Source: Escherichia phage UE-S1. Taken from it: DNA of 64,000 nucleotides. Made by a program: the position numbers and the translations under genes. Positions 11,860 through 40,626 of this stretch are shown here, piece after piece; within the stretch, counting starts at the first letter, position 1; each line of letters begins with the position of its first letter. Under the pieces are notes generated by a model. It worked only from the letters and a program-made list of their open reading frames with translations, did no database searches and had not been told where the DNA came from. The stretch lies in the sequence record ON568341.1; one strand, 5' to 3'.

Positions 11860-12315
11860 ATGTTTAAAAATTTTATTGTTATTGTAGCAGTGCTTTTTGG
11901 TGTATCATATTTTATTTCCCCTGTACATGCAGAAGAACAACGACAAACAATTAAAACAATAGGTACTGGGAAAACTCCACCTAAACGCACTGCTGAAGAA
12001 TATATGCCTGAGATGCGTGAACGTTATCGCCAGACATATAGAGAAAAACATGCAAATGATAAACCAATCAAGAAACACAAATGGGAAGTCGTTAAATCAC
12101 CTTCATTTTGTGCTGGGTATGCTAAAGTAAAAGTTGAGCAACACAAAAACCAGTACTACAAAGATATGTATTATTTCTATAACTCCAGAATCTCAGACAC
12201 TGATATGATGGCAGGGAAAGTTAACAAAGAAGAGTTTCTTCAAGGTTATGATATGATGGATGATGATAAGATTATGGAATGTGTGGAAGTATATGAGAAA
12301 TACAGAGGGTTCTAA
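11860..12315 (+). CDS. secreted hypothetical protein (signal peptide)
   Basis: N-terminus MFKNFIVIVAVLFGVSYFISPVHA then charged region. Confidence 0.55.
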   Translation: MFKNFIVIVAVLFGVSYFISPVHAEEQRQTIKTIGTGKTPPKRTAEEYMPEMRERYRQTYREKHANDKPIKKHKWEVVKSPSFCAGYAKVKVEQHKNQYYKDMYYFYNSRISDTDMMAGKVNKEEFLQGYDMMDDDKIMECVEVYEKYRGF

Positions 12316-16686: not shown

Positions 16687-16693
16687 AGAACAA

Positions 16694-16720
16694 GGGTTGA
16701 CTTAGGTCAACCCTTTTTTT
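16694..16720 (+). terminator. intrinsic terminator
   Basis: GGGTTGACC-TTAG-GTCAACCC hairpin plus T7 run. Confidence 0.7.
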
Positions 16721-19153: not shown

Positions 19154-19432
19154 ATGTCTTTTTCTAAAGAAGAACGTGACCTTATTAAAAAAGCAATCTG
19201 GTTTTATGCTAATGAAGGGAAGTGCGATGAAGAAAAAGCACGTGAACTGTGTAATATCTTTGAGAAGAAACAAGATCTGAAAGTGTATCGTATCCGTGAT
19301 TTGGATGAAGGGGATCGTATTGTCCTAGCTGAAACAAAAGAAGAAGCAGAACAAATCTTCACTGATAAAAACGAAAATCCACATTGGATGGAAGAAGTCT
19401 GTGATGTTAAAAAAGGTACTTATATCGATTGA
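19154..19432 (+). CDS. hypothetical protein
   Basis: Track ORF 19139 trimmed to ATG after AGGAAA. Confidence 0.45.
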   Translation: MSFSKEERDLIKKAIWFYANEGKCDEEKARELCNIFEKKQDLKVYRIRDLDEGDRIVLAETKEEAEQIFTDKNENPHWMEEVCDVKKGTYID

Positions 19433-19457
19433 CAGAACTGAATAATAGCAGTATAAT
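19429..19457 (+). promoter_or_regulatory. sigma-70-type promoter (TTGACA-17-TATAAT)
   Basis: TTGACAGAACTGAATAATAGCAGTATAAT. Confidence 0.6.
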
Positions 19458-19549: not shown

Positions 19550-19858
19550 ATGTTTCAAACTAACACTCAAGGTTTTGTAATCATAGATTTGAATCAAAAC
19601 AGCGGTTATTGGATGAAACCTACTGACGCATGTATGCAGTTTGATTTCTTAGGTTACAGAATTAGTGTAAGTACTGGTGCTTCTGTACTGAGAGGTGGTT
19701 GTATCGTTGAACATCTGGTAACTGATCCAGAAGGTCGTGAGTATGAAATCGCAGGTTCAGTACAAGATGCCATTATGTTTGTATGTCAGCGTGAAATGAA
19801 TGGTTCGAATTCAAATGCACTGACTCATGCTCTTTCTCAAGAAGTGGAGATTCGTTAA
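19550..19858 (+). CDS. hypothetical protein (102 aa)
   Basis: Track ORF with GAGGAA RBS. Confidence 0.5.
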   Translation: MFQTNTQGFVIIDLNQNSGYWMKPTDACMQFDFLGYRISVSTGASVLRGGCIVEHLVTDPEGREYEIAGSVQDAIMFVCQREMNGSNSNALTHALSQEVEIR

Positions 19859-20109
19859 TGAAATACATTGTAGCAGTACTCGTCGCATTTTTACTCACTG
19901 CATGTGATGCTTCAACCAAAGAACGCACAAGTGATTTTGAACTCCCTACTGAATTAAAAGAAGCAGGATGTAAGATTTATCGTATGCAACAGGAAGGTGC
20001 TGGTGCAACGTTGTATACAGTTTATTGTCCTAATGCAAACACCAGTACTGGATACACTAGTGGAAAAACACGAATCAACACTTCAGTGATTAATGGAGTA
20101 CAACAATGA
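19858..20109 (+). CDS. putative lipoprotein (83 aa)
   Basis: MKYIVAVLVAFLLTAC signal peptide with lipobox LTAC. Confidence 0.55.
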   Translation: MKYIVAVLVAFLLTACDASTKERTSDFELPTELKEAGCKIYRMQQEGAGATLYTVYCPNANTSTGYTSGKTRINTSVINGVQQ

Positions 20110-20474
20110 GCCTTGATACAACCCGTGCAACAGATTTATTAACTCGTCTGAATGATGAAGAGTATCTTGCTGAAATAAAATACAAGCTTGATAAACTGGT
20201 TCGAAGTGCTGAAGTAATTGAAGTTGAAGGTCACTTACCAATGGATCAATTCCATACGTTCAACGAAGATATGGTTTATTATCCTAATGAAATTTGGATT
20301 GAGTGGCAACATTGGACTGGTAAAACACTACGTATTGAAGGGTATTGTGTGAAGTATGAACGTGATCCTGGTTATGTGACAAAAACTTTGTCAATTTGGT
20401 GTACAAAAACACATGAACTCGTTGAGGTGAATTTGAATTATATGAATGGCTTCCGTTGGGGTGATGTTAAATGA
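20106..20474 (+). CDS. hypothetical protein (122 aa)
   Basis: Track ORF, ATGA overlap. Confidence 0.5.
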   Translation: MSLDTTRATDLLTRLNDEEYLAEIKYKLDKLVRSAEVIEVEGHLPMDQFHTFNEDMVYYPNEIWIEWQHWTGKTLRIEGYCVKYERDPGYVTKTLSIWCTKTHELVEVNLNYMNGFRWGDVK

Positions 20475-20746
20475 TTAAAAAACTCTTGACGGTGTTCTTT
20501 GTATTCAGTATAATGTTTCTTACCGCATGTAATGACGATGGCACGTTAAGTGCAAAAGACTTAGCTCGATATGATTGTACATTCACAGGTAAGTCTTTTA
20601 TTAACGAATATGAAATATGTACACAAGCAGGACGTATCTGTGGTGGTTGGGAGAAACGTCAAGAGAAGTTGTATGTATACGAATGTCCCGGAAAACACAA
20701 TAAAGTTCTAAGTAAACAAAAACTTGTTTATGATAAGGTTGAATAA
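20471..20746 (+). CDS. putative lipoprotein (91 aa)
   Basis: MIKKLLTVFFVFSIMFLTAC with lipobox; Cys-rich mature part. Confidence 0.55.
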   Translation: MIKKLLTVFFVFSIMFLTACNDDGTLSAKDLARYDCTFTGKSFINEYEICTQAGRICGGWEKRQEKLYVYECPGKHNKVLSKQKLVYDKVE

Positions 20747-20961
20747 TGACTACCAATGAAATGATGCAGGTTATTTGGGATAAAGGATGTGATATTAAAA
20801 TCACTAGCACTGATGTTCGTGTGTTCAAAACTGAATACCTAGAGTACTTGGACCTTGATACTTATAATAATATTGTATCAATTGAACACAAAGGTGCAGT
20901 ACTTGAAACTATTGATGTGGTTCTGAAGAAAGCAACAGACCTATTAGGTGCGTCAGTGTGA
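20746..20961 (+). CDS. hypothetical protein (71 aa)
   Basis: Track ORF, TAATG coupling. Confidence 0.45.
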   Translation: MTTNEMMQVIWDKGCDIKITSTDVRVFKTEYLEYLDLDTYNNIVSIEHKGAVLETIDVVLKKATDLLGASV

Positions 20962-21111
20962 ATAATAAAGAGTGGGAAGAATATAGAAAAAATGCCGAGA
21001 GTTTGATAAAGAACTAACTGGTACTATTAATGCAATAATGGGTGTATCTGTTTTTATTGCAGTTGTGTCATTATTTTCTGTTATTATTAATAAATTTTTA
21101 TAGGAACTCCC

Positions 21112-21309
21112 ATGTTTACTTTATATCTTGCAGTGGTTCTTACTAATGGTGACATAACTCGAACTATTGGTGAAGGTGTATATAAAACTCCTGAGCAATG
21201 TTACTCTGCTACACATTGGCCTCGTGATAGTGATGATACTCGTACCGAATTTAAATGCATGAAAGTAAAAGGTGATTTTGTTAACCTTAAAGTTATCGAG
21301 GCTAAATGA
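21112..21309 (+). CDS. hypothetical protein (65 aa), hydrophobic N-terminus
   Basis: Track ORF. Confidence 0.45.
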   Translation: MFTLYLAVVLTNGDITRTIGEGVYKTPEQCYSATHWPRDSDDTRTEFKCMKVKGDFVNLKVIEAK

Positions 21310-21827
21310 TGAATATTAATGAGTTGTTAATATTATTGTTTAATCGTGAACGCCGCGATACAAGACCAATTGAATATCAAGATGTGATACGTATTGAAAC
21401 GGATTTCTGTTATGGTAAAACAACTCATGATCTTTTGAATCCATCTGGAAAACGCTATGCTGATGTTTGTTTTTCTGAAAGAAGTGATGGTTCAGAAATA
21501 ACAAGTACTGAAATTGTGTTTTATGATAGATCCTCGGCAGGTTCGTATGAAATAGAACTTATATATTGTCCTTGTTCAGAAACACACAATAAACATCAGA
21601 TATTATATGATGTTTATTCACCCCCAGGTATTGCTGAATATTTTGTTATTGATTACAGTACTGAAGAAAGTGTGTTTCAACAGAGCTTGATTCATAACTT
21701 CCAGTTGAATGATCCATTAGTACCGAAGATTTTCAAACTACTTGACACAATCGATGTTGATTTTGAATTTGTTATGTGCATTAGAACTTCTTTATTCAAT
21801 GAATTCATGGAACTTTTTAATATATGA
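21306..21827 (+). CDS. hypothetical protein (173 aa)
   Basis: Track ORF, ATGA overlap. Confidence 0.5.
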   Translation: MMNINELLILLFNRERRDTRPIEYQDVIRIETDFCYGKTTHDLLNPSGKRYADVCFSERSDGSEITSTEIVFYDRSSAGSYEIELIYCPCSETHNKHQILYDVYSPPGIAEYFVIDYSTEESVFQQSLIHNFQLNDPLVPKIFKLLDTIDVDFEFVMCIRTSLFNEFMELFNI

Positions 21828-22045
21828 ATAGATACTATGTTGTGTATGAACACGTTTCTGAATTTAATAACATACGAGGTTATTCCAGAGTTGTCACAAA
21901 GATGGATGTATTCATTCGTGCTCTTAGTGAAGTAGATGCACTGTTTAAATTGTTTGATGAAATTACAAAGTATAACACACCCAAAACACACCGCTATGTG
22001 GAAACTGTACATAGCATTATGCTAACTGAAAGTGATGAGGAATGA
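21824..22045 (+). CDS. hypothetical protein (73 aa)
   Basis: Track ORF. Confidence 0.45.
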   Translation: MNRYYVVYEHVSEFNNIRGYSRVVTKMDVFIRALSEVDALFKLFDEITKYNTPKTHRYVETVHSIMLTESDEE

Positions 22046-22048
22046 TAA

Positions 22049-22267
22049 ATGAATTTATATCTTGTTGAAGGATTGGTACAAGTCTATAAACTTGAATGTG
22101 AAGGGCAGCGTTTTTCACACGTAGAAGATTTTAAGTACGTTGTAAAGGCATCTTGTCAAAACGATGTTGAAATTCAAGTTCGAGAATCATTTCGTAATAA
22201 GAATGCAATTGGAAAATTCAAATATCAGCACTTACAATTCAAAGTATGGCCTAGCATAAATGACTAA
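22049..22267 (+). CDS. hypothetical protein (72 aa)
   Basis: Track ORF. Confidence 0.45.
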   Translation: MNLYLVEGLVQVYKLECEGQRFSHVEDFKYVVKASCQNDVEIQVRESFRNKNAIGKFKYQHLQFKVWPSIND

Positions 22268-22475
22268 GATGTGGTGGTGTCATGGTGTCTATAACGTGTA
22301 TGTAAATGGTCGATATAAAATGTCTAGTACCTATGCTAGACGTGTTCATGCGAAGAATAAAGTTGATGCGGCGTGTGATATCATTGAGTGGTATGCTGAG
22401 TTTAATACATTTGACTATATGTACGAAATAGTTACAATAAATGTTGTACAAATTGACACGTCTCTGATACAATAA
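22260..22475 (+). CDS. hypothetical protein (71 aa)
   Basis: Track ORF. Confidence 0.4.
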   Translation: MTKMWWCHGVYNVYVNGRYKMSSTYARRVHAKNKVDAACDIIEWYAEFNTFDYMYEIVTINVVQIDTSLIQ

Positions 22476-22508
22476 CTACATCAAAAAACAACTGCAACTG
22501 AGGATACT

Positions 22509-23171
22509 ATGTTAGTAAATCTTAATTTCATCACTTCTCCTGATTGGGCATTACGTGGTGTTTCTTTGAACTTTAAAGAAACTAATTTCGACTACATTGG
22601 GGATTGTACTTTAGTTAATGCTACATTTGATCCTCATCATCCTTTTTGGGCTAAGATTCATGATCCTAATGTAAACAATAGTGTATCTGTTATGACTATT
22701 GTACAGACGAAATATCCTGGCATTCTCGCAGGAGAACATCCTAAAGTTGCAATTAATCATTTCACTGATTATGATGTAGTAGATGAGTATCCAATGATTC
22801 ATAAAGATGGAAGTTTATACACATCTGAAGACGTTCGTGCTATCTTTAATAGTACTGATGATATTCTACCAAGTGGACGAACACGTCCTAAGTCTTATCT
22901 TATGCATTCATCTTATGGTGTAGCAGATACGCTTGAGCAGATTATGAAGAAGTACAAGAACCTAATTGAAGGTCCAGAAGAAGTTGTCATGTGCTATTAT
23001 CCAGTACTGAAATCAGACCAGCCAAAGAGTGGTGGGTGGCGTTGGCATAAAAACGGTGAGTACATTGGAAATAAACGTAGCAAAGAACGTTTTGAGTACT
23101 TGTATGATGAACCCGATATTGATGTTGTTTTGTGTTATAACTTCCTTAAGGTGAAAAAGAAATGTATCTAG
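22509..23171 (+). CDS. hypothetical protein (220 aa)
   Basis: Track ORF with GAGGA RBS. Confidence 0.55.
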   Translation: MLVNLNFITSPDWALRGVSLNFKETNFDYIGDCTLVNATFDPHHPFWAKIHDPNVNNSVSVMTIVQTKYPGILAGEHPKVAINHFTDYDVVDEYPMIHKDGSLYTSEDVRAIFNSTDDILPSGRTRPKSYLMHSSYGVADTLEQIMKKYKNLIEGPEEVVMCYYPVLKSDQPKSGGWRWHKNGEYIGNKRSKERFEYLYDEPDIDVVLCYNFLKVKKKCI

Positions 23172-23398
23172 TATTGAGTATTGTAACTGCACTATTGTTT
23201 ATGTTTTACCCTACACTAGTAGCACTAGTTACAAGACGAACTGTTGGAGATATCACTACAGTATTCTTGTTAAACGTGGTTCTGGCACTAGTGTCTATTA
23301 AAATCCCAGTAACCCCCACTGTTATTGATACGGTAACAGTATTTCTCTTTGTTTTCAGTTATCTTATGCTTATCGATGAGAAACCTGTTGACAAATAA
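23162..23398 (+). CDS. small membrane protein (78 aa)
   Basis: Two hydrophobic helices. Confidence 0.5.
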   Translation: MYLVLSIVTALLFMFYPTLVALVTRRTVGDITTVFLLNVVLALVSIKIPVTPTVIDTVTVFLFVFSYLMLIDEKPVDK

Positions 23399-23457
23399 TC
23401 TTAGTGCTGTATAATAATTCTTGAAATGTAAAAAACTTAAACATGAGGGTATAAAAT

Positions 23458-23778
23458 ATGTTATCAGTATTGTTTTCAATTCCATCTTTAATTCTAATTT
23501 GGATTATTGTGTATGAATGTTTTATTGTAGATGATACGGAGAAAAAAGAATTCAATGAGTTATTCATGCTTGATACGCCAGTTGTCCGCATTTTCTATTC
23601 TGTAGTTATCGTTTCAGTACTTGCATGGATTGTAAGTTTTATCTTCCCAATGGGTGCAATCATTAATGTATTGAATTTGGTTGAAAACACTATTGCTATT
23701 CTATGGCTTATCAAAGCGTGGTATGTAGGAAATGTTAATATTTGGATTGATATTGTTAAATCTAAATTTACAAAATAA
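23458..23778 (+). CDS. small membrane protein (106 aa)
   Basis: Hydrophobic segments; GAGGG RBS. Confidence 0.5.
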   Translation: MLSVLFSIPSLILIWIIVYECFIVDDTEKKEFNELFMLDTPVVRIFYSVVIVSVLAWIVSFIFPMGAIINVLNLVENTIAILWLIKAWYVGNVNIWIDIVKSKFTK

Positions 23779-23870
23779 GATGTAATAAGTAATAGTGAAA
23801 CAACCTAGATATGATTAAATACTTCTGTACATACATATAGTACAGAAGTATTTCTTAGTAGAGGTTTGTT

Positions 23871-24230
23871 ATGAATACTTATATAAAATTAATAGCACTT
23901 ACTTGCTTGTTATTGTCTTTTTTTAGTTACGGTTCGTCATCTGAAACACAATGTCGTAGTACTAATGGAACGATGTATTCATTAACTAACGATCCGGGAA
24001 ATGGTAAAAATATTGTTATTGATGGTGAAACTTATCGTTTTAAAGTACAAAGCACTATTGGTAATAAAAAGATAACGACTTATATTAATGATTCTGGAAC
24101 ACTTGCAAATGTTATATTAATTGTTAATCCAAAAACAGGTCGTGGTGATATCTATATAGTAATTTATTTAGATTCAGCACAACAACGAGAATTAGATATA
24201 GATGAATTAAATCTTCATTGCAAAATATAG
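23871..24230 (+). CDS. secreted small protein (signal peptide), paralogue of 24615-24971
   Basis: Signal-peptide-like N-terminus; shared motif DGxxYxF..TIG. Confidence 0.5.
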   Translation: MNTYIKLIALTCLLLSFFSYGSSSETQCRSTNGTMYSLTNDPGNGKNIVIDGETYRFKVQSTIGNKKITTYINDSGTLANVILIVNPKTGRGDIYIVIYLDSAQQRELDIDELNLHCKI

Positions 24231-24240
24231 GGTATAAAAT

Positions 24241-24618
24241 ATGATAGATTCTATTGTAATTGGGTTGATAAGTATTCCATTTATTTTGTCTTTTATAATT
24301 TCCATATGCATGATTGTGTATTTTATATTTGCTGGAATGTATTTTGTTTTAACAAACAAGTATATTTTTATTTCTAAGCTTGATTCAATATTTGCATGTG
24401 AAACTTTAGCTTACAACTTATGGATAATCTGCTCTAGTATTATGGGGTTGACTTACCTTTTATATAAATTTGATTTTATTAATGTAAATATTGTATATAT
24501 TAGTGCTGGATTAGCATTATATCCTGCTACATGGTACTTGATTTATGTTGTGGACATATGGTATAGTACTTACAAAGAATACCAGTGTAAGAAATCATTA
24601 AAAGTTGAGAGGAATTGA
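24241..24618 (+). CDS. small multi-pass membrane protein (125 aa)
   Basis: Hydrophobic segments. Confidence 0.5.
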   Translation: MIDSIVIGLISIPFILSFIISICMIVYFIFAGMYFVLTNKYIFISKLDSIFACETLAYNLWIICSSIMGLTYLLYKFDFINVNIVYISAGLALYPATWYLIYVVDIWYSTYKEYQCKKSLKVERN

Positions 24619-24971
24619 TTATGAAAATTATTTTATTTTTTGTATCTATGTTATTGAGTGGATTTGTATATGCTGAACCACTTGAAGGTTTAGTTTGCAC
24701 AGACGGACACATCAAACATATCTATCAAGGTGATAGTTATGATCATGATATTGTTTATATTGATGGTCAACAATATAACTTTGTTAAAGAGCATACTATT
24801 GGCGACATTAGCTTCAATGAGTTTTCAAATGATGAAGATCCTAACGCCTTGGCATTTATGGAAGTTGATTTGTATGAAGATAGTAATGGTACACAATATG
24901 CTAAACTTGTTATGATGCGTCGTGGTGCTAAAGAAACAAGTTTCGGTGGTTTATGTAAATATAAGGATTAA
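24615..24971 (+). CDS. secreted small protein (signal peptide)
   Basis: MIMKIILFFVSMLLSGFVYA then EP. Confidence 0.5.
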   Translation: MIMKIILFFVSMLLSGFVYAEPLEGLVCTDGHIKHIYQGDSYDHDIVYIDGQQYNFVKEHTIGDISFNEFSNDEDPNALAFMEVDLYEDSNGTQYAKLVMMRRGAKETSFGGLCKYKD

Positions 24972-24976
24972 TTATT

Positions 24977-25168
24977 ATGCTGATTTATAAATGTGATAAT
25001 ATTCGTGTTCTACAACATCCTTATCTTCAAATCTTTGATGTGCAGATGTTCATGGAAGGTGATAATCCGAGAACCTATGGACGTAAGTATGATTATTTCA
25101 CGGTCAAGCAGTGCAACAACATTGATGAAGTACGACGATTAGTACATGAACTCCAAAACAAAGGTTGA
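24977..25168 (+). CDS. hypothetical protein (63 aa)
   Basis: Track ORF ending inside terminator stem. Confidence 0.45.
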   Translation: MLIYKCDNIRVLQHPYLQIFDVQMFMEGDNPRTYGRKYDYFTVKQCNNIDEVRRLVHELQNKG

Positions 25169-25194
25169 CTTCGGTCAGCCTTTTTTGTTATAAT
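25163..25194 (+). terminator. intrinsic terminator overlapping promoter-like hexamers
   Basis: GGTTGAC-TTCG-GTCAGCC hairpin plus T6; the stem TTGACT and a downstream TATAAT are spaced 18 nt like -35 and -10. Confidence 0.65.
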
Positions 25195-30346: not shown

Positions 30347-30685
30347 ATGGAACAATATTTTGAATTAATTAATAAAGTGTCATTCTATGTAGTGTCATTG
30401 ATGTGGGTTTATTTCATGTTTTGCTACATTATTGCATTCTTCCGATACACTACTTTATATGAACGTATCTATTATGATGCACCGATTTCATTCTTGGTAT
30501 TCTGTGCGTGTACGTGGGGAATATTAGAAGTACTGATATGTGGATATAGTACTGATGAATTAAATCTGGTATCGGTATTGACTGGGTTATCACTTGGCGT
30601 TATGATATCTTTCTTTCCAGTATGGTTGTTCTTTGAGCTGTTCCATCGCATTGATGTATGGCGTTCTAATATCCCTGAAAAATAA
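30347..30685 (+). CDS. small membrane protein, paralogue family A (1 of 3)
   Basis: 3-4 hydrophobic helices; C-terminal tail R.NIPEK. Confidence 0.55.
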   Translation: MEQYFELINKVSFYVVSLMWVYFMFCYIIAFFRYTTLYERIYYDAPISFLVFCACTWGILEVLICGYSTDELNLVSVLTGLSLGVMISFFPVWLFFELFHRIDVWRSNIPEK

Positions 30686-30688
30686 GGA

Positions 30689-31036
30689 TTGATAATGATT
30701 TATTACACTAACGTGTTTGCCTATGCTGTTGCTTGCATTTACATTGTTTACTTCTTATTTGGTGGAGTGCTTTACTTCTTTAAGTACAAAACACTGTTTA
30801 ATAGGATGTATCCAAATCACCCTATCGTAGTTGTACTTTTGATTCTTTCTGTTTCCCAAATAATCGTTGAAACTACAATGGGTATCAGTAGTGTACATTA
30901 TAGCTTCGGTACTATAGTAATTATTACTATGCTTATTGCATACATTTTAGTACTTGGATATGGTATATTTGGTAATGTTGGAATGAAAATGTATCATCGA
31001 ATTAAAACCTTACGTGATAATCTACCGGAGCGTTAA
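30689..31036 (+). CDS. small membrane protein, paralogue family A (2 of 3)
   Basis: Shared FxYxTLxxRxY motif and tail LRDNLPER. Confidence 0.55.
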   Translation: MIMIYYTNVFAYAVACIYIVYFLFGGVLYFFKYKTLFNRMYPNHPIVVVLLILSVSQIIVETTMGISSVHYSFGTIVIITMLIAYILVLGYGIFGNVGMKMYHRIKTLRDNLPER

Positions 31037-31037
31037 T

Positions 31038-31382
31038 ATGTATAATTTAAACCTAATCTCATATATTATAACAACACTGTTTACATTCTATGCCTTTGTT
31101 GGTATAATCCTACTGTACTTTAAATTTTATAAAGTGTTTAACCGTTTCTATCCTTCAATGGAGAATGAGTTTTTCTTTGTGTTGTACGTAGGTTACACAT
31201 TAATGGCTACATGTTTCACTGTAGCCGATGGTGTCATCGGCATTAAAACTGATGCACCAAATGGTAGTACGCTGGTTGCATTTATTCTTACCGGATTCCT
31301 TGCAACTTATATTGCCTTCATTACAACATGGTCAGTAGTTGAATTTCTCTTGCGACTACGTAAGAATATGCCGAATCGATAG
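31038..31382 (+). CDS. small membrane protein, paralogue family A (3 of 3)
   Basis: Track ORF 31014 (GTG) trimmed to ATG after GGAG; tail LRKNMPNR. Confidence 0.5.
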   Translation: MYNLNLISYIITTLFTFYAFVGIILLYFKFYKVFNRFYPSMENEFFFVLYVGYTLMATCFTVADGVIGIKTDAPNGSTLVAFILTGFLATYIAFITTWSVVEFLLRLRKNMPNR

Positions 31383-35913: not shown

Positions 35914-35966
35914 TTTCCATATTGACAGTACTAACAATGTGTAGTATTATACACTGGAGACACCTG

Positions 35967-36308
35967 ATGCGTATATTTTTTGAATCTAATATAATGCTTG
36001 GTATTACACTGATATACATGTTTGTATTCTTGTTTTATCATTCAATTGTAATTAGTCTTTGGTATTTTAAAAGGAAAATGGTTTTTAAATTATATTCGTA
36101 TGATAATGTATTCTTAGTTGTATATAGTATCATACAAGGTGGATTTGTTCTATTTGGTGTTATGACGTATGTGATTTATAGATTACAAATTGATAACACA
36201 CCATACATTACACAGTATGTTGTGTTCACAGGACTAATCGTATGGTTGTTGGTGTGTATCATGTATTTCATAATTAAAGCTCGTGATAGAATTAAAGGGG
36301 AGTTCTAA
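35967..36308 (+). CDS. small membrane protein, paralogue family B (1 of 8)
   Basis: Track ORF trimmed to ATG after GGAGA; tail ARDRIKGEF. Confidence 0.5.
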   Translation: MRIFFESNIMLGITLIYMFVFLFYHSIVISLWYFKRKMVFKLYSYDNVFLVVYSIIQGGFVLFGVMTYVIYRLQIDNTPYITQYVVFTGLIVWLLVCIMYFIIKARDRIKGEF

Positions 36309-36646
36309 TGTTAGAATTTTTTAAATCAGATGTGATGCTTAGTATTACATTGATTTATATGTTTGGGTTTTTATTTTATCATATACTAGTTGTAGTTCTA
36401 TGGTATTTTAAAAAGAAAATAGTTTTCAAACTGTATCCACCTAGTAATATTTTATTGTTTCTTTACACACTTATTCAAGGTATGTTTGTGATTGTTGGTG
36501 TTATCACTCACTTAATTTATTGTACTAATCCACATTTAAACTCGATAACACAATATGTTGTTTTCTTTGGGTTGTTCATTTGGTTAGTTGTATACTTAAT
36601 CCATCTCATTATTCATGGTAGAGATAAAATTCGCGGAGACTTCTAA
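36308..36646 (+). CDS. small membrane protein, paralogue family B (2 of 8)
   Basis: Highly similar to previous (ITLIYMFxFLFYH...WYFKRK); tail GRDKIRGDF; TAATG coupling. Confidence 0.55.
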   Translation: MLEFFKSDVMLSITLIYMFGFLFYHILVVVLWYFKKKIVFKLYPPSNILLFLYTLIQGMFVIVGVITHLIYCTNPHLNSITQYVVFFGLFIWLVVYLIHLIIHGRDKIRGDF

Positions 36647-36993
36647 TGTTTGAAGCTTATCTTGAGTTTTTAAGGAGTAGTCCAGTTGCACATTCACTTG
36701 CAGGGATTATTCTAACAACTTATGTAACATTTTGGGTAGTTATGTTTATAGGATGGTATTTTAAACGACAATTCTATAAACGTAATGTTGAAGATTTTAT
36801 GAATTCTGCAATTAATCAATCGTTGTTTGCATCAACATTTATTGCATGTATTGTAGCAACACTCACAGGAAAGGTACTACCAGCTTTTTCCGCAGTTTAC
36901 GGTACACTTGGGATGATATGTTTAACTTTTATATTGACCATTAAAATTTGTTGTGTTATGATTGAACTTCGAAACAAGATACCGGAGGAATGA
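36646..36993 (+). CDS. small membrane protein, paralogue family B (3 of 8)
   Basis: Hydrophobic helices, WYFKRQ motif, tail LRNKIPEE. Confidence 0.55.
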   Translation: MFEAYLEFLRSSPVAHSLAGIILTTYVTFWVVMFIGWYFKRQFYKRNVEDFMNSAINQSLFASTFIACIVATLTGKVLPAFSAVYGTLGMICLTFILTIKICCVMIELRNKIPEE

Positions 36994-37328
36994 TGGAGTA
37001 CTTTATTGATTTACTACCGTGGTATATGAAAGTTAGTACTTTGTACTATATTATTAGTGCTGGATTCTATTTCCTGATGTGGTTCTTTAAACGACCAATT
37101 TCAGTATTCATCTCTGACAACCTACTGCAATTAAAATTACACGCATGGTTTGGTATGTCCATGATTATGCCAATTATTCATTACTCGATGATTAGTAATG
37201 GTTTTCGTTCTAGTGGTGAGCCAGTTGTAATTGTATTTTATTGGGGTTCAACTATAGTATATGTCGGTTTTCTATTGTTCCCGATCATTCATAAATTACG
37301 TGCTAAAGTTCCTGATGCGAGGTACTAA
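36990..37328 (+). CDS. small membrane protein, paralogue family B (4 of 8)
   Basis: WFFKRP motif, tail LRAKVPDARY. Confidence 0.55.
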   Translation: MMEYFIDLLPWYMKVSTLYYIISAGFYFLMWFFKRPISVFISDNLLQLKLHAWFGMSMIMPIIHYSMISNGFRSSGEPVVIVFYWGSTIVYVGFLLFPIIHKLRAKVPDARY

Positions 37329-37642
37329 TGGATATAGTAACATTGATTTACACGTTGTATTCATTCTATTTTATTATGTGTTGGGTTGGATTTGTATTTG
37401 TACTCAAGATGTTTGATTATGTTGAAAGACAGATAAAAGATTTTTGTATTCCTTTTATCGGTTCAACCATTATTAGTGTTTCTTGTGTGTATTTTTTGGT
37501 GTTTGATCCACCAGATAACACTGCGATGATTGACTTCATGTTACTACCAACCACTATTATTTTTTTATGTAGTCTGATGCCACCTATTAGTCGTGGATTG
37601 ACTGAATTTAGACGCAAACAAAAGCGTAAAAGAGGGATGTAA
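37328..37642 (+). CDS. small membrane protein, paralogue family B (5 of 8)
   Basis: Hydrophobic; basic tail RRKQKRKRGM. Confidence 0.5.
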   Translation: MDIVTLIYTLYSFYFIMCWVGFVFVLKMFDYVERQIKDFCIPFIGSTIISVSCVYFLVFDPPDNTAMIDFMLLPTTIIFLCSLMPPISRGLTEFRRKQKRKRGM

Positions 37643-38010
37643 TGGAAATTGCTCTTATTATCTTAACTGCTATGCTGTTTATTAGTACTGTGGTTATAAT
37701 TGGTAAATTCTTTTGTGTATCATTTTTAGAAACGGTATACGATGAAATTGCTGATGATTATGAATTACAAGCCGGATTTTTTATTACGTATTGGCTTAGT
37801 TTATTTTGTCTAGTCATTGCTTGGATTTTGCATATCTTTAAATGGGGTATGGTAGATGGTGATCCTGTCATGGGAATTATTGTTCTAGTGTTTGGTATCC
37901 TTGGTGGTGCAGTGCATAATCTGATGGTTATCTGGCAAACTGTTCAATATGTTTTGGTTCCCTATTTTGAAAAGATGCACAGTACAATTAAAAAACGTAA
38001 ACGAGGTTAG
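37642..38010 (+). CDS. small membrane protein, paralogue family B (6 of 8)
   Basis: Hydrophobic; basic tail IKKRKRG. Confidence 0.5.
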   Translation: MEIALIILTAMLFISTVVIIGKFFCVSFLETVYDEIADDYELQAGFFITYWLSLFCLVIAWILHIFKWGMVDGDPVMGIIVLVFGILGGAVHNLMVIWQTVQYVLVPYFEKMHSTIKKRKRG

Positions 38011-38011
38011 T

Positions 38012-38374
38012 ATGAACGGGATAGAATTATCTTTCATTGGTCAATTACTAGTAATGGTGAATACTTTCATTTTCTCATTTATTGCATTGATGTGCATTGG
38101 AAAGTATTTCCACAAACGACCATTATCAAATTTATATGATGTAATAAAAAAGAAATATAGTCCAGCACACACTGTACTTATTAGTAGTTTCAATTTTGGG
38201 TTTGTTGTATTAATAATTGGATTGTTAACATCAACGTCGAATGTACTAATCTTCGGTCTTATGATTTGTTCATTGGTATTAGCAGCAATTATATGTTGTT
38301 TAGTACTGCACCTTGTAGTACTATTATATATAAAGCTCGTTGAAATCCATCAACGTTTAGGGATGAGGAAATAA
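38012..38374 (+). CDS. small membrane protein, paralogue family B (7 of 8)
   Basis: Track ORF 37949 trimmed to ATG after GAGG. Confidence 0.5.
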   Translation: MNGIELSFIGQLLVMVNTFIFSFIALMCIGKYFHKRPLSNLYDVIKKKYSPAHTVLISSFNFGFVVLIIGLLTSTSNVLIFGLMICSLVLAAIICCLVLHLVVLLYIKLVEIHQRLGMRK

Positions 38375-38375
38375 T

Positions 38376-38747
38376 ATGAGTTACCGTGAGATATTTTCCA
38401 TTATTTCAATTATTATGTTCAGTACTGGAACATTGGTGTGGGTATTATATTTTTTCTGTGTAGCACCAGTGTATAATATGTTATGTAATATTAAATCAAG
38501 TGCTGGATATATTACTTTTATGGTCTTTATGGGATATTATTGTCTAAGCATTTTAGGTGTTGTTTTGGTTGTTATATTAGATGTTGGACCGAATAGGGAT
38601 GGTCTGAAAATGTATGAGTTATTAACTATGTTTGGGTGTATGATACCAACAGCACTAATGTTTGTAGCTATTGGTGGTGGATGCATAAAGTTATACAATT
38701 ATTTAAAATCTATTCATCATTCCATTCACAATAAGCGTATGTCATAA
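38376..38747 (+). CDS. small membrane protein, paralogue family B (8 of 8)
   Basis: Hydrophobic helices; tail HNKRMS. Confidence 0.5.
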   Translation: MSYREIFSIISIIMFSTGTLVWVLYFFCVAPVYNMLCNIKSSAGYITFMVFMGYYCLSILGVVLVVILDVGPNRDGLKMYELLTMFGCMIPTALMFVAIGGGCIKLYNYLKSIHHSIHNKRMS

Positions 38748-38788
38748 TAAAAATCCAGTACTGAATAGTACTGGACTAATAAGGAGTT

Positions 38789-39439
38789 ATGATGAAATCA
38801 AAATTAGGTTTGTTTTATGGAAACTACTTCATTAAACAGCGTAAATTCATAAAAAAATACTTCTCTACAGAGAAATCTAGTCCTCTAATTTTTAAAAGAC
38901 CAAAATATAATTTTTACTTAGCTGGTGCTAAACAGTCTAAGAAATTCATTACATTTTTAAATAAAAACAAAATTAAAGCTTCTTATGTTGAAACCAGAAA
39001 GAACTCATCAATAATTCCTGGTGATTTTATTGAATACGGATGTTTCAATATTAAGCACAATGATAACACATACTTTATGGATATTGATTGTAATACATCA
39101 AATCTTTTTAACATTGTAATAAATCCATCAAAACAATATAATGTTTATGGTGATTCAATTATCAAATTAATAAGAAACAAAGATTGGTTTGATTTTGAAA
39201 TAAATGTTTTAGATGAAAACTTTGATGAAGTTCCAGTTAATCCTGAAATATGTGATATATTAAACAGTTTAAAAGGTAGTAGCTACAATATACCATCTGA
39301 TTTAATGTTCCAGTACTCATTAATCCATAAAGATATTGAACAGTACATTATGTGTGCTAAAATCTTGAATTATCTGTATGATGAATTTAAAATGAGTTCT
39401 AAAATAACAGCATATACTCTTTATAATATTTCTATATAA
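38789..39439 (+). CDS. hypothetical protein (216 aa)
   Basis: Track ORF, AAGGAG RBS. Confidence 0.55.
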   Translation: MMKSKLGLFYGNYFIKQRKFIKKYFSTEKSSPLIFKRPKYNFYLAGAKQSKKFITFLNKNKIKASYVETRKNSSIIPGDFIEYGCFNIKHNDNTYFMDIDCNTSNLFNIVINPSKQYNVYGDSIIKLIRNKDWFDFEINVLDENFDEVPVNPEICDILNSLKGSSYNIPSDLMFQYSLIHKDIEQYIMCAKILNYLYDEFKMSSKITAYTLYNISI

Positions 39440-39450
39440 TTTAAAATATT

Positions 39451-39476
39451 AAAGCCAGCACAAGAGCACTGGCTTT
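39451..39476. terminator. bidirectional terminator hairpin between convergent genes
   Basis: AAAGCCAG-loop-CTGGCTTT with flanking A/T runs. Confidence 0.55.
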
Positions 39477-39480
39477 AATA

Positions 39481-40626
39481 TTATTTTTTCCAAGGAAGTA
39501 ACGAAGTTGGAATCTTGATAGGTATATTTGATGCAGCAACATCAGGAAAATTTGCATCTCCACAAACATACAAATTATCGATTTCGTCAATCAATAATGT
39601 ATAGTTGTAACTTCTACAAAAACCGCTTAAGCCTCTTCCCTCTAATGCAGATAAATTCATTTCAGTGAATTGAGTTATATATGTTTCATTTGAACCAACA
39701 CCACATTGACCATTAGCATTTATACCACAAGTAAGCAATTTATTATTGTTTTGAATTACACATGATGGTCCAGCAAGGTTCGTACCTAGTTCACCTACAA
39801 CATTAACTTCACCTTTTAATGATAAATTTTGGATCACTGTACTCATAGGGACACGCGATGTATTTCCAACACCTGCTTGTCCTGAGCCATTAGTGGATGC
39901 AACTTTAACAGTACCGTCATTAAGAAAAATATAAGATGTTTCGATGGTATTAACTGCTTGTGTAGCTGTTGTTATTGTCGTATCCTGCTTGAATTTAAGT
40001 ACATTTGTTGTTGTTGAACCAGATATAAATGTAGCACCTGCGTACCAATAGGTTCCATCTTGAAGTACTAAACCAGTACTTCTAATTGAACACCCTGCAC
40101 TGCGAACATTTTCTATATGACTATATGTAAAGGTTGATACGATTGAAGATTCACCATTACCGAACACCCCACCAGTACCTGCACCACAGAAAAACCATTT
40201 ACCGTTTTTCAAAAATACACGCATACAAGCAGAAATAACCACACTATCAATATCACTTGCAGCTACACCAAAATCGGTAAAGAAATGAGTTATATCAATC
40301 CAATTACCACCAGTATTTGATGGGAGATGGGGAATTACAACTCTAGTCCCTGTGTACCAGATTGTATCATCATCTTTAATAACAAGAGTACCTTGAACAC
40401 CACCCCAATACCTTGTTACATTTGTATTAACAAGCCTCCACTCAGTAGATGATTCAGTGGAGCCATTACCACCTTGACCATAAGATGATGAGCCGTGCCA
40501 GTATAAATTTCCATTTTTATCTAAATAAAATTTTGCATCAGCCGAACATTGCAATCTGTATTTGAATACGGTTTTTGGTGCTGGTGCAATATTTGCATAT
40601 TTTAGCATTCTACCAAAAGGTAACAT
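39481..40626 (-). CDS. RCC1-like beta-propeller protein with conserved MLPFGRM N-terminus (array member 9, most downstream)
   Basis: N-terminus MLPFGRMLKYANIAP; repeats such as GSSSYGQGGNG, CGAGTGGVFGNG, CGINANGQCGVG. Confidence 0.7.
   Translation of the reverse strand: MLPFGRMLKYANIAPAPKTVFKYRLQCSADAKFYLDKNGNLYWHGSSSYGQGGNGSTESSTEWRLVNTNVTRYWGGVQGTLVIKDDDTIWYTGTRVVIPHLPSNTGGNWIDITHFFTDFGVAASDIDSVVISACMRVFLKNGKWFFCGAGTGGVFGNGESSIVSTFTYSHIENVRSAGCSIRSTGLVLQDGTYWYAGATFISGSTTTNVLKFKQDTTITTATQAVNTIETSYIFLNDGTVKVASTNGSGQAGVGNTSRVPMSTVIQNLSLKGEVNVVGELGTNLAGPSCVIQNNNKLLTCGINANGQCGVGSNETYITQFTEMNLSALEGRGLSGFCRSYNYTLLIDEIDNLYVCGDANFPDVAASNIPIKIPTSLLPWKK

What the first reader, a model, noticed from the sequence alone, without database searches (positions are those of the whole stretch)
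19858..24971. Cluster of early small lipoproteins and signal-peptide proteins
Two ORFs have classic lipoboxes (LLTAC at 19858, FLTAC at 20471) and two paralogous ORFs (23871, 24615) have cleavable signal peptides, interspersed with small membrane proteins. Early-expressed phage lipoproteins are known to block receptors (as T5 Llp does) and exclude superinfection; this is a candidate exclusion module.
Basis: partly seen in the sequence, partly recalled or inferred. Interest (0 to 1): 0.5.

Follow-up and report, generated by a model that had tools for sequence, protein, structure and literature searches.

The report
Early envelope-protein genes of jumbo phage
Two early operons of a 121Q-like giant E. 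coli phage send two small lipoproteins, three membrane proteins and two periplasmic beta-barrel proteins that resemble bacterial lysozyme inhibitors to the cell envelope; they may shield the infected cell, for example from further phage attack, but they are not relatives of the known T5 Llp/Cor receptor blockers.

Summary
Both lipobox ORFs, both signal-peptide paralogs and three small polytopic membrane proteins are at the stated coordinates. They are conserved and under purifying selection across the 121Q/PBECO4 (Asteriusvirus) jumbo phages. Perfect sigma-70 consensus promoters precede them, so early expression is well supported, though not shown.

Neither lipoprotein is related to T5 Llp or Cor. 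The 'Cor'/'lytic conversion lipoprotein' labels in relatives come from the signal peptide alone. Lpp1 has Asp at +2, which predicts inner-membrane retention, and its gene is not next to a receptor-binding gene.

Lpp1 belongs to a large uncharacterised family (phrog_902, about 300 clusters) of disulfide-bonded lipoproteins in many virulent phages.

The stretch is two separable units, not one module. The lipoproteins are absent from Klebsiella relatives, which keep the SP1-TM-SP2 block.

Best guess (about 0.35): they are Spackle-like periplasmic inhibitors of a phage lysozyme. Function is untested.

The parts
19429..19457 (+). Perfect sigma-70 consensus promoter (TTGACA-N17-TATAAT) of operon 1
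   Evidence: 12/12 match; 10 such sites in the window against 0.21 expected
19550..19858 (+). o19550, 102 aa, no TM segment or signal peptide; first gene of operon 1; phrog_26720, unknown function
   Evidence: overlaps the Lpp1 start by 1 nt
19858..20109 (+). Lpp1: 83-aa prolipoprotein (LLTA|C-DAST). The mature protein is 68 aa including the lipidated Cys, with invariant Cys38/Cys57. Member of the widespread phrog_902 family of virulent-phage lipoproteins
20106..20474 (+). o20106, 122 aa, no TM segment; phrog_22236, unknown function; 4-nt overlaps on both sides
20471..20746 (+). Lpp2: 91-aa prolipoprotein (FLTA|C-NDD) with four conserved mature cysteines; phrog_31263; found only in the jumbo-phage clade
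20746..20961 (+). o20746, 71 aa, no TM segment; phrog_22069, unknown function
20958..21103 (+). Ortholog of 121Q gp179 (48-aa C-terminally anchored membrane peptide), interrupted here by a 1-nt deletion in an A-run near 20986
23162..23398 (+). Small membrane protein, 78 aa, about 3 hydrophobic segments; ortholog of K64-1 gp329 'membrane protein'
23388..23415 (+). Perfect sigma-70 consensus promoter (TTGACA-N16-TATAAT) of operon 2
23458..23778 (+). Small membrane protein, 106 aa, about 3 hydrophobic segments; phrog_31401; conserved out to K64-1 (gp331)
23819..23851 (+). Conserved 12-bp stem-loop between TM23458 and SP1
   Evidence: -15 kcal/mol here, -24 and -26 in 121Q and fEgEco12, despite diverged flanks
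23871..24230 (+). SP1: 119-aa secreted protein; paralog of SP2; invariant Cys28/Cys117; phrog_25709
24241..24618 (+). Small membrane protein, 125 aa, 3-4 hydrophobic segments; phrog_31707; its stop lies 2 nt before the SP2 ATG; the trio order is conserved in K64-1 (gp332-333-334)
24621..24971 (+). SP2: 116-aa secreted protein (VYA|E). Predicted eight-stranded beta-barrel with invariant Cys in the first and last strands; phrog_27330. The mechanical ORF starts at TTG 24615
24977..25168 (+). o24977, 63 aa, last gene of operon 2; phrog_6957, unknown function
25160..25194 (+). Intrinsic terminator hairpin (25160-25183) overlapping an 11/12 promoter (25165-25194). One copy of a repeated element GGTTGACTTCGGTCAGCC
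   Evidence: 7 + strand copies, 0 expected; matches the 'redundant repeat' of phage CBB

Best explanation
The region holds two separate early operons, transcribed by host RNA polymerase, of an Asteriusvirus-type jumbo phage. Both load the infected cell's envelope with small phage proteins soon after infection.

Operon 2 (TM23458-SP1-TM24241-SP2, preceded by TM23162) encodes two paralogous periplasmic beta-barrels. Each is closed by a disulfide between the first and last strands, which is the architecture of the bacterial PliC/MliC/PhiA/ACP peptidoglycan-hydrolase inhibitors. The most likely mechanism has three steps. SP1 and SP2 are secreted by Sec and oxidised by DsbA. They then bind and inhibit a lysozyme-type enzyme in the periplasm. 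The preferred target is the baseplate-hub tail lysozyme of superinfecting virions; the alternative is the phage's own signal-anchored endolysin. This would do the job of T4 Spackle with a different fold. The interleaved small inner-membrane proteins may act as Imm-like partners.

Operon 1 encodes two disulfide-bonded lipoproteins that face the periplasm. Lpp1 is predicted to stay on the inner membrane because it has Asp at +2. Lpp1 belongs to a large family shared by many unrelated virulent phages, so it probably targets a conserved envelope component and not a variable outer-membrane receptor.

Shown: the genes, the export signals, their conservation, the promoters, the predicted fold and the absence of homology to Llp/Cor. 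Inferred: early timing, the disulfides, the localisation, and every functional step.
For: Export signals and purifying selection:
- Lipoboxes and signal-peptidase sites are conserved across orthologs.
- dN/dS is 0.1-0.3.
- The mature domains carry even numbers of conserved cysteines.

Early timing:
- 10 perfect sigma-70 promoters, all on the + strand, against 0.21 expected; two of them lie directly upstream of the two units.
- The region lies downstream of the phage sigma-factor gene, and the related phage CBB has its RpoD-like promoters concentrated in the equivalent small-ORF region, which its authors suspect to be early (PMC5259590).

SP fold:
- AlphaFold2 model of SP2: pLDDT 79.6, pTM 0.66, eight strands.
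- The beta1-beta8 disulfide that defines these inhibitors (PMC5507604) corresponds to the Cys pair that is invariant in 22 of 22 SP proteins and lies in model strands 1 and 8.
- ACP lacks the MliC motifs yet inhibits lysozyme.
- The most conserved non-Cys residues (D40, G63, G92/Y95) fall in loops 2, 4 and 6, at one end of the barrel. Loop 4 is the inhibitory loop in this fold (the loop placement is my inference).

Targets exist: RaK2-like phages carry a virion baseplate-hub tail lysozyme, a T4-type lysozyme and a signal-anchored lysozyme endolysin (PMC5259590).

Precedent: T4 Spackle is an early periplasmic, disulfide-bonded inhibitor of the gp5 tail lysozyme and works alongside the membrane protein Imm (PMC7677548).

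Linkage: the SP1-TM-SP2 order is conserved out to Klebsiella phage K64-1.
Against: - No sequence link to MliC/PliC: Pfam shows no hit at E up to 1, and the SP profile against PDB sequences scores no better than E = 0.11, with no MliC/PliC among the hits.
- The SxSGAxY and YxxxTKG motifs are absent.
- The model is a prediction from only 22 sequences.
- There are no transcript, localisation or phenotype data for any of these genes in any relative.
- The envelope-protein block has higher dN and also higher dS than its neighbours, so there is no sign of positive selection.
Confidence: 0.35

Rival explanations
1. One reading: Lpp1 and/or Lpp2 act like T5 Llp or Cor. They would be outer-membrane lipoproteins that bind the periplasmic face of the phage's own receptor and inactivate it.
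For: - Both are early, small, disulfide-capable lipoproteins of about the same size as Llp and Cor.
- Both are missing from the Klebsiella relatives, as a host- or receptor-specific factor might be.
- 8 of 71 Lpp1-family members touch the Cor PHROG (best E 2.3e-5).
- Lpp2 in most phages has Asn at +2, so outer-membrane sorting is possible.
Against: - Mature-domain profile comparison with Llp and Cor gives probability 3% or less, against 96% for the control.
- The Cor hit is lost without the signal peptide.
- In the full-length alignments the family's invariant cysteines are not matched to Cor's.
- Lpp1 has Asp at +2, the core of the Lol-avoidance signal (PMC9595528). The Turkey5 Lpp2 has C-DED.
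- The cysteine architecture is different and the genes are not next to receptor-binding genes.
- The Lpp1 motif is conserved across phages of Vibrio, Acinetobacter, Erwinia and E. coli that use different receptors.
- The Asteriusvirus receptor is unknown, and flagella have been suggested (PMC11895373).
Confidence: 0.15
2. Lysis control, not exclusion: SP1 and SP2, with the membrane proteins, restrain the phage's own signal-anchored endolysin or the host's lytic transglycosylases. This would prevent premature lysis during the long jumbo-phage cycle.
For: - The same fold evidence as above.
- The endolysin of RaK2-like phages has an N-terminal transmembrane domain, like endolysins that use the signal-arrest-release system, and it appeared toxic when its expression was induced (PMC5259590).
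- PhiA, a member of this fold group, inhibits a bacterial autolysin and not an animal lysozyme (abstract of PMC8334348).
- Two paralogs could serve two enzymes.
Against: - The genes are not in a lysis cassette and have early-type promoters.
- The T4 precedent argues that early inhibitors do not meet late endolysin (PMC7677548).
- No biochemical data exist.
Confidence: 0.15
3. Generic early envelope remodelling unrelated to peptidoglycan hydrolases: the SP barrels are lipocalin-like ligand or protein binders, and the lipoproteins and membrane proteins alter transport, stress signalling or envelope-based host defences.
For: - A lipocalin is among the best, though non-significant, sequence-profile hits.
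- The window holds several other clusters of secreted or membrane proteins, so export to the envelope is a general habit of this phage's early region.
- All of these families are 'unknown function' in PHROGs, and there are no PADLOC hits.
Against: - The three best structural matches, and five of the top 13, are all lysozyme inhibitors.
- The family-specific beta1-beta8 disulfide is present.
Confidence: 0.3
4. Lpp1 or Lpp2 is the outer-membrane spanin subunit (Rz1-like) of the lysis system.
For: They are small phage lipoproteins. 2 of 71 Lpp1-family members weakly hit an Rz-like spanin PHROG (E 6.9e-4).
Against: - The flanking genes have no transmembrane segment, so there is no inner-membrane spanin partner.
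- The promoters are early type and there is no holin or endolysin nearby.
- Asp at +2 argues against outer-membrane sorting.
- The proteins are beta-structured and not proline-rich.
Confidence: 0.02

Closest known systems
T5 Llp and the Cor lipoproteins (T1, N15, phi80 group): superinfection-exclusion lipoproteins that jam FhuA from the periplasm
   Same: Small (about 60-70 aa mature) phage lipoproteins with lipobox signal peptides and intramolecular disulfides. Llp is early. They face the periplasm.
   Different: - No detectable homology in the mature domain.
- Llp and Cor have Ser at +2, and Llp is an outer-membrane lipoprotein. They also have a disulfide linking the termini: Cys11-Cys58 in Llp and equivalent Cys positions in Cor.
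- Their genes lie next to receptor-binding or tail-fibre genes.
- Lpp1 has Asp at +2, a Cys pair 19 residues apart and no linkage to a receptor-binding gene. Lpp2 has four cysteines.
PliC/MliC/PhiA/ACP periplasmic or membrane-bound lysozyme (peptidoglycan-hydrolase) inhibitors
   Different: - The SxSGAxY and YxxxTKG motifs are absent, as they are in ACP.
- Phage-encoded and early.
- Inhibitory activity is untested.
T4 Spackle (gp61.3) with Imm
   Same: Early genes. A secreted, disulfide-bonded periplasmic protein alongside small inner-membrane proteins. The proposed role is the same: neutralising the tail lysozyme of incoming phage (PMC7677548).
   Different: Spackle is an alpha-helical bundle, whereas SP1 and SP2 are all-beta. 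There is no homology. The partnership with the membrane proteins is inferred only from conserved gene order.
phrog_902 family of virulent-phage lipoproteins (function unknown)
   Same: Lpp1 is a clear member: E 2.6e-14 for the full protein and 2.3e-7 for the mature domain alone. It shares the Y-x-LP-x-EL...C-K-I-Y...VVRCPNS-T signature and both invariant cysteines.
   Different: Nothing distinguishes it except Asp at +2, which only about a quarter of the family shares.

Membership tests
Llp/Cor superinfection-exclusion lipoproteins | N-terminal lipobox signal peptide | tested here: met
   LLTA|C and FLTA|C; a PROSITE-type rule selects only these two ORFs; conserved in orthologs
Llp/Cor superinfection-exclusion lipoproteins | Sequence homology of the mature domain | tested here: not met
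   hhalign probability 3% or less against 96% for the Cor-Cor control; the Cor PHROG hit is lost without the signal peptide
Llp/Cor superinfection-exclusion lipoproteins | Outer-membrane sorting (no Lol-avoidance signal; Ser at +2) | tested here: not met
   By sequence rule only. Lpp1 has C-D-A in all Asteriusvirus orthologs. Lpp2 has C-N-D, and C-D-E in Turkey5. Rule from PMC9595528. Actual localisation is not testable here.
Llp/Cor superinfection-exclusion lipoproteins | Disulfide linking a Cys about 10 residues into the mature protein to a Cys 2-4 residues from the C-terminus | tested here: not met
   Llp has C11/C58 and Cor has C9-12/C57-60. Lpp1 has C38/C57 of the precursor, 19 residues apart and mid-chain. 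Lpp2 has four cysteines.
Llp/Cor superinfection-exclusion lipoproteins | Gene adjacent to a receptor-binding or tail-fibre gene | tested here: not met
   llp lies next to oad and cor next to tail-fibre genes. Lpp1 and Lpp2 are flanked by small genes of unknown function. The same holds for Lpp1 homologs in JSF12, ekra and CR3.
Llp/Cor superinfection-exclusion lipoproteins | Inactivates the phage's receptor and gives an exclusion phenotype | not testable with these tools
   Needs expression and adsorption or plating assays
phrog_902 lipoprotein family | Profile match over the mature domain with the conserved Cys pair and the LPxEL / CPN motifs | tested here: met
   (71 of 71 sampled members hit phrog_902)
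MliC/PliC/ACP-type lysozyme inhibitors (SP1, SP2) | Export to the periplasm | tested here: met
   Cleavable signal peptides with AXA-type sites conserved in orthologs; rule-based, SignalP not available
MliC/PliC/ACP-type lysozyme inhibitors (SP1, SP2) | Eight-stranded antiparallel beta-barrel | tested here: met
   [not shown]
MliC/PliC/ACP-type lysozyme inhibitors (SP1, SP2) | Disulfide between the first and last strands | tested here: met
   The Cys pair is invariant in 22 of 22 proteins and lies in model strands 1 and 8. Feature definition from PMC5507604. Bond formation itself is inferred.
MliC/PliC/ACP-type lysozyme inhibitors (SP1, SP2) | SxSGAxY and YxxxTKG motifs / Pfam MliC sequence match | tested here: not met
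   No motif in the relevant position in any of the 22; no Pfam hit at E up to 1; the profile against PDB sequences finds no MliC/PliC. SP1 and SP2 are therefore not filed as MliC/PliC family members; at most they are fold analogues, like ACP.
MliC/PliC/ACP-type lysozyme inhibitors (SP1, SP2) | Binds and inhibits a lysozyme | not testable with these tools
   Needs a biochemical assay
T4 Spackle | Alpha-helical bundle fold / sequence homology | tested here: not met
   SP2 is all-beta; there is no PHROG or Pfam link. Spackle fold from PMC7677548.
o-spanin (Rz1-like) | Partner inner-membrane spanin gene overlapping or adjacent, within a late lysis cassette | tested here: not met
   The neighbours have no transmembrane segment, and the promoters are early type
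TrbK entry-exclusion lipoprotein (TIGR04359) | Score above the curated cut-off | tested here: not met
   16.6 bits against a cut-off of 23; the aligned stretch (residues 4-43) begins in the signal peptide, which makes up about a third of it

The most novel reading that the evidence does not exclude
SP1 and SP2 are a phage-evolved branch of the PliC/MliC-type beta-barrel fold that inhibits the virion-borne tail lysozymes of competing jumbo phages. This would be a second, structurally independent invention of Spackle-type superinfection exclusion, operating with small Imm-like membrane partners. In addition, the phrog_902 lipoproteins (Lpp1) would be a widespread, so far unrecognised envelope-protection or exclusion factor shared by Felixounavirus, Vequintavirinae, T5-like Vibrio phages and jumbo phages, acting on a conserved periplasmic target.
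Probability: 0.2. Interest if true: 0.7.

Novelty: new variant of a known kind. Interest (0 to 1): 0.4.

Why it matters
Superinfection exclusion in strictly lytic phages is understood mechanistically for only a few proteins: T5 Llp, Cor, and T4 Imm and Spackle.

If the SP barrels inhibit tail lysozymes, it would show convergent use of the bacterial anti-lysozyme fold by a phage. It would also give a handle on how 350-kb phages defend an infected cell during a long cycle.

The phrog_902 family is present in hundreds of virulent phages, several of them therapy candidates, and has no known function. Showing what it binds would annotate a gene in many genomes.

A practical point: the 'Cor superinfection exclusion protein' and 'lytic conversion lipoprotein' labels now spreading through automated annotation of these phages are artefacts of the signal peptide and should not be relied on.

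Tried and rejected
- **Cor homology.** Suggested by PHROG (E 0.0046) and by annotation in vB_Ec-M-J and fEgEco12. Rejected after removing the signal peptide and running mature-domain hhalign with a positive control.
- **TrbK entry-exclusion lipoprotein.** Below the curated cut-off, and the alignment begins in the signal peptide.
- **Spanin.** Rejected on gene context and sorting signal.
- **Selection on Lpp1.** Its protein is 100% identical to 121Q gp175. Rejected, because third codon positions are also 99% identical over 19550-20109, so this is a recent recombination tract.
- **Gene-wide positive selection on the envelope proteins.** Not seen; dN/dS is 0.1-0.3.
- **Sequence-profile searches against PDB.** Nothing for either family.
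- **PADLOC.** No hits.
- **Conserved neighbour of Lpp1 homologs in unrelated phages.** None found.
- **Enrichment of exported proteins over the whole 5-kb stretch.** Not significant.
- **Lpp2 as a divergent Lpp1 paralog.** Only a short LYVxCP motif is shared, with marginal statistics.

Full report
**Source and context.** The window comes from a jumbo myovirus of about 350 kb in the 121Q/PBECO4 (Asteriusvirus) group. The 5.7 kb around the finding is collinear with about 32 E. coli and Salmonella jumbo phages at 81-87% nucleotide identity. Parts of it are conserved in the Klebsiella phages RaK2 and K64-1 at about 70%. In every annotated relative the genes are 'hypothetical protein', with two exceptions. 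vB_Ec-M-J labels the Lpp1 ortholog 'Cor superinfection exclusion protein'. fEgEco12 labels both lipoproteins 'lytic conversion lipoprotein'. The fEgEco12 paper does not discuss these labels.

**The observation.**
- Lpp1 (19858-20109) begins MKYIVAVLVAFLLTA|CDAST.
- Lpp2 (20471-20746) begins MIKKLLTVFFVFSIMFLTA|CNDD.
- A PROSITE-type lipobox rule selects exactly these two of the 336 ORFs of at least 40 aa in the window.
- The pattern by itself is weak evidence. Two or more matches appear in 13% of nucleotide shuffles and 42% of N-terminal residue shuffles.
- Conservation makes the case. The lipobox, the lipid cysteine and the further cysteines (two in Lpp1, four in Lpp2) are kept in orthologs whose synonymous divergence exceeds 1.5, with dN/dS of 0.1-0.3.
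- SP2 has a textbook VYA|E cleavage site. SP1 orthologs have AAA|E, ANA|V and VSA|N.
- SP1 and SP2 are true paralogs. BLASTP gives E = 5e-6. The cross-PHROG hit survives removal of the signal peptide. They align end to end with invariant C28, D40, D50 and C114. K64-1 has both, so the duplication predates the Asteriusvirus/Alcyoneusvirus split.
- Three small polytopic membrane proteins (23162, 23458, 24241) are confirmed and conserved out to K64-1.
- A correction: the SP2 start is almost certainly the ATG at 24621, not the TTG at 24615.

**Early expression.** The window contains ten perfect TTGACA-N16-18-TATAAT promoters, all on the + strand, against 0.21 expected. One (19429-19457) lies 92 nt upstream of o19550. 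From there, o19550, Lpp1, o20106, Lpp2 and o20746 follow with overlaps of 1, 4, 4 and 1 nt. Another (23388-23415) lies 42 nt upstream of TM23458. The series TM23458-SP1-TM24241-SP2-o24977 then runs to an intrinsic terminator at 25160-25183. The region lies downstream of the phage sigma-factor gene. In the related phage CBB, the equivalent region of short ORFs with RpoD-like promoters was suspected by its authors to be the early region (PMC5259590). [quoted passage not shown] Early transcription by host sigma-70 holoenzyme is therefore a strong inference, but no transcript data exist.

**One module or two.** The stretch is two transcription units separated by 2.4 kb of genes for small proteins with no export signal. 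The two units have different distributions.
- Lpp1 and Lpp2 are absent from K64-1, which keeps the five membrane and SP genes.
- Lpp1 homologs occur in hundreds of phages that lack the SP block.
- The SP family is confined to the 121Q/RaK2 clade.
- The 5-kb stretch is not significantly enriched for hydrophobic proteins (6 of 17, P = 0.16). Only 23.1-25.0 kb is (4 of 5, P = 0.01). The window contains several other clusters of exported proteins.

**The lipoproteins are not Llp or Cor.** Lpp1 hits phrog_902 (E 2.6e-14) and, weakly, the Cor PHROG (E 0.0046) and TrbK (16.6 bits against a cut-off of 23). With the signal peptide removed, the Cor hit vanishes while phrog_902 remains (E 2.3e-7). I extracted real Cor (N15, T1) and Llp (T5) from their genome records. 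Mature-domain hhalign gives probability 3% or less for the Lpp1 family or for Lpp2 against any of them, while Cor N15 against Cor T1 gives 96%.

The architectures also differ.
- Llp and Cor have Ser at +2.
- Llp and Cor have a cysteine about 10 residues into the mature chain paired with one 2-4 residues from the C-terminus (Cys11-Cys58 in Llp; PMC9586334).
- Their genes abut receptor-binding or tail-fibre genes.
- Lpp1 has Asp at +2, which is the core of the E. coli Lol-avoidance (inner-membrane retention) signal (PMC9595528).
- Lpp1 has a cysteine pair 19 residues apart in mid-chain.
- Lpp1 has no receptor-binding neighbour here or in JSF12, ekra or CR3.

**What Lpp1 is.** An exhaustive profile search finds 296 clusters (at 50% identity) with E at or below 1e-3. 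Nearly all are 75-110 aa and match over their full length. A 71-sequence alignment shows invariant C38 and C57, near-invariant C16 (the lipid site), P30 and P58, and the signature Y-x-LP-x-EL..C-K-I-Y...VVRCPNS-T-T...GK. Members occur in Felixounavirus, Vequintavirinae-like phages, Erwinia and Yersinia jumbo phages, Demerecviridae of Vibrio, and others, and all are annotated as hypothetical. No Pfam family and no solved structure matches. The AlphaFold2 model (pLDDT 71: a short helix plus a four-stranded meander) has no meaningful structural neighbour. Because the mature-domain motif is conserved across phages with different hosts and receptors, its target is more likely a conserved envelope component than a variable receptor; this is my inference. 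The +2 residue varies across the family (D 33, S 25, E 21, T 17 of 134), so the inner-membrane prediction holds only for this clade and some others, such as CR3. Lpp2 occurs only in the jumbo clade. It shares a short LYVxCP motif with Lpp1, but the statistics are marginal.

These are all periplasmic or membrane-bound inhibitors of lysozyme-type enzymes. According to PMC5507604, the fold is an eight-stranded barrel whose beta1-beta8 disulfide is preserved in MliC, PliC and ACP. The SxSGAxY and YxxxTKG motifs are specific to MliC/PliC and absent from ACP, which still inhibits lysozyme through loop 4.

**Mechanism proposed.** RaK2-like phages carry a virion baseplate-hub protein with a lysozyme domain, a T4-type lysozyme, and an endolysin with an N-terminal transmembrane domain (PMC5259590). 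T4 provides the precedent. Spackle is an early, secreted, disulfide-bonded periplasmic protein that inhibits the gp5 tail lysozyme of superinfecting phage. It acts together with the small membrane protein Imm, and it is alpha-helical (PMC7677548). I propose that SP1 and SP2 do the same job with a different fold, possibly together with the interleaved membrane proteins. The stop codon of TM24241 lies 2 nt before the SP2 start, and the SP1-TM-SP2 order is conserved out to K64-1. My confidence is about 0.35. The main alternatives are control of the phage's own endolysin (0.15) and envelope functions unrelated to peptidoglycan hydrolases (0.3). An Llp-like receptor block by the lipoproteins remains possible, mainly for Lpp2 (0.15). 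I found no report of a phage-encoded MliC/PliC-fold protein in the searchable literature.

**Verdict.** However, they are not Llp- or Cor-like and not a single module. The most informative new result is the lysozyme-inhibitor-like fold of SP1 and SP2. Interest is moderate, because function is untested throughout.

Noticed in passing
window 19550-20109: o19550 and Lpp1 are 99.0-99.6% identical in nucleotides to phage 121Q, including third codon positions, while the flanking genes are 75-92% identical. This is a recent recombination tract between lineages (mosaicism), not selection.
   Followed up: yes
window 20958-21103: The ortholog of 121Q gp179, a 48-aa tail-anchored membrane peptide with a GTG start overlapping the o20746 stop, has a 1-nt deletion in an A-run near 20986. 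The deletion splits it between two frames. It could be a pseudogene, a sequencing error or a programmed frameshift.
   Followed up: partly
window 23819-23851: A 12-bp A/T-rich stem-loop lies just upstream of SP1. It is conserved in 121Q and fEgEco12 (-15 to -26 kcal/mol) although the surrounding block is only 66-79% identical. It could be an attenuator, an RNA processing site or a translational control element.
   Followed up: partly
window 16695, 25163, 27959, 29299, 33796, 35080, 63703 (+ strand): The hairpin element GGTTGACTT(C/A/T)GGTCAGCC is repeated 7 times on the + strand (0 expected), followed by a T-run at the two copies inspected (16692-16715 and 25160-25183). Its stem carries a -35-like TTGACT, and at 25165-25194 it doubles as an 11/12 promoter. 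It matches a 'redundant repeat' annotated in Pectobacterium phage CBB. It appears to be a conserved terminator/promoter punctuation of the early operons.
   Followed up: partly
window 4452-57422: There are ten perfect sigma-70 consensus promoters, all on the + strand. Several have similar spacers (…CAGTACTG-TATAAT or …AAAAGCG-TATAAT), which suggests a phage-specific extended early-promoter consensus.
   Followed up: partly
window 35922-38747 and 30347-31382: Two further runs of consecutive membrane-protein genes of about 105-140 aa (seven and three genes). The first pair at 35922/36308 is 55% identical, and 30347/30689 are 31% identical, so the arrays are at least partly tandem paralogs. More signal-peptide ORFs lie at 11860 (…SPVHA|EEQ) and 59587 (…AVNA|SLD). 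This phage's early region exports many proteins to the envelope.
   Followed up: partly
L010 (Escherichia phage ekra) 4974-5234: The Lpp1-family gene of this Felixounavirus is not annotated in the GenBank record; the match falls between ekra_62 and ekra_63. Members of the family are probably under-annotated.
   Followed up: no
window 20471-20746 compared with 19858-20109: Lpp2 shares an 'AG..C…LYVxCP' hairpin motif with the Lpp1 family (shuffle p 0.004-0.009 in four orthologs and 0.14 in the fifth; hhalign probability only 4%). It may be a very divergent paralog, but this is not established.
   Followed up: partly
L012 (T5) 38430-39491: T5 llp is followed by four small genes for single-transmembrane-segment proteins (T5.159-T5.162). 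A lipoprotein plus small membrane proteins is thus also the arrangement at the classical Llp locus.
   Followed up: no
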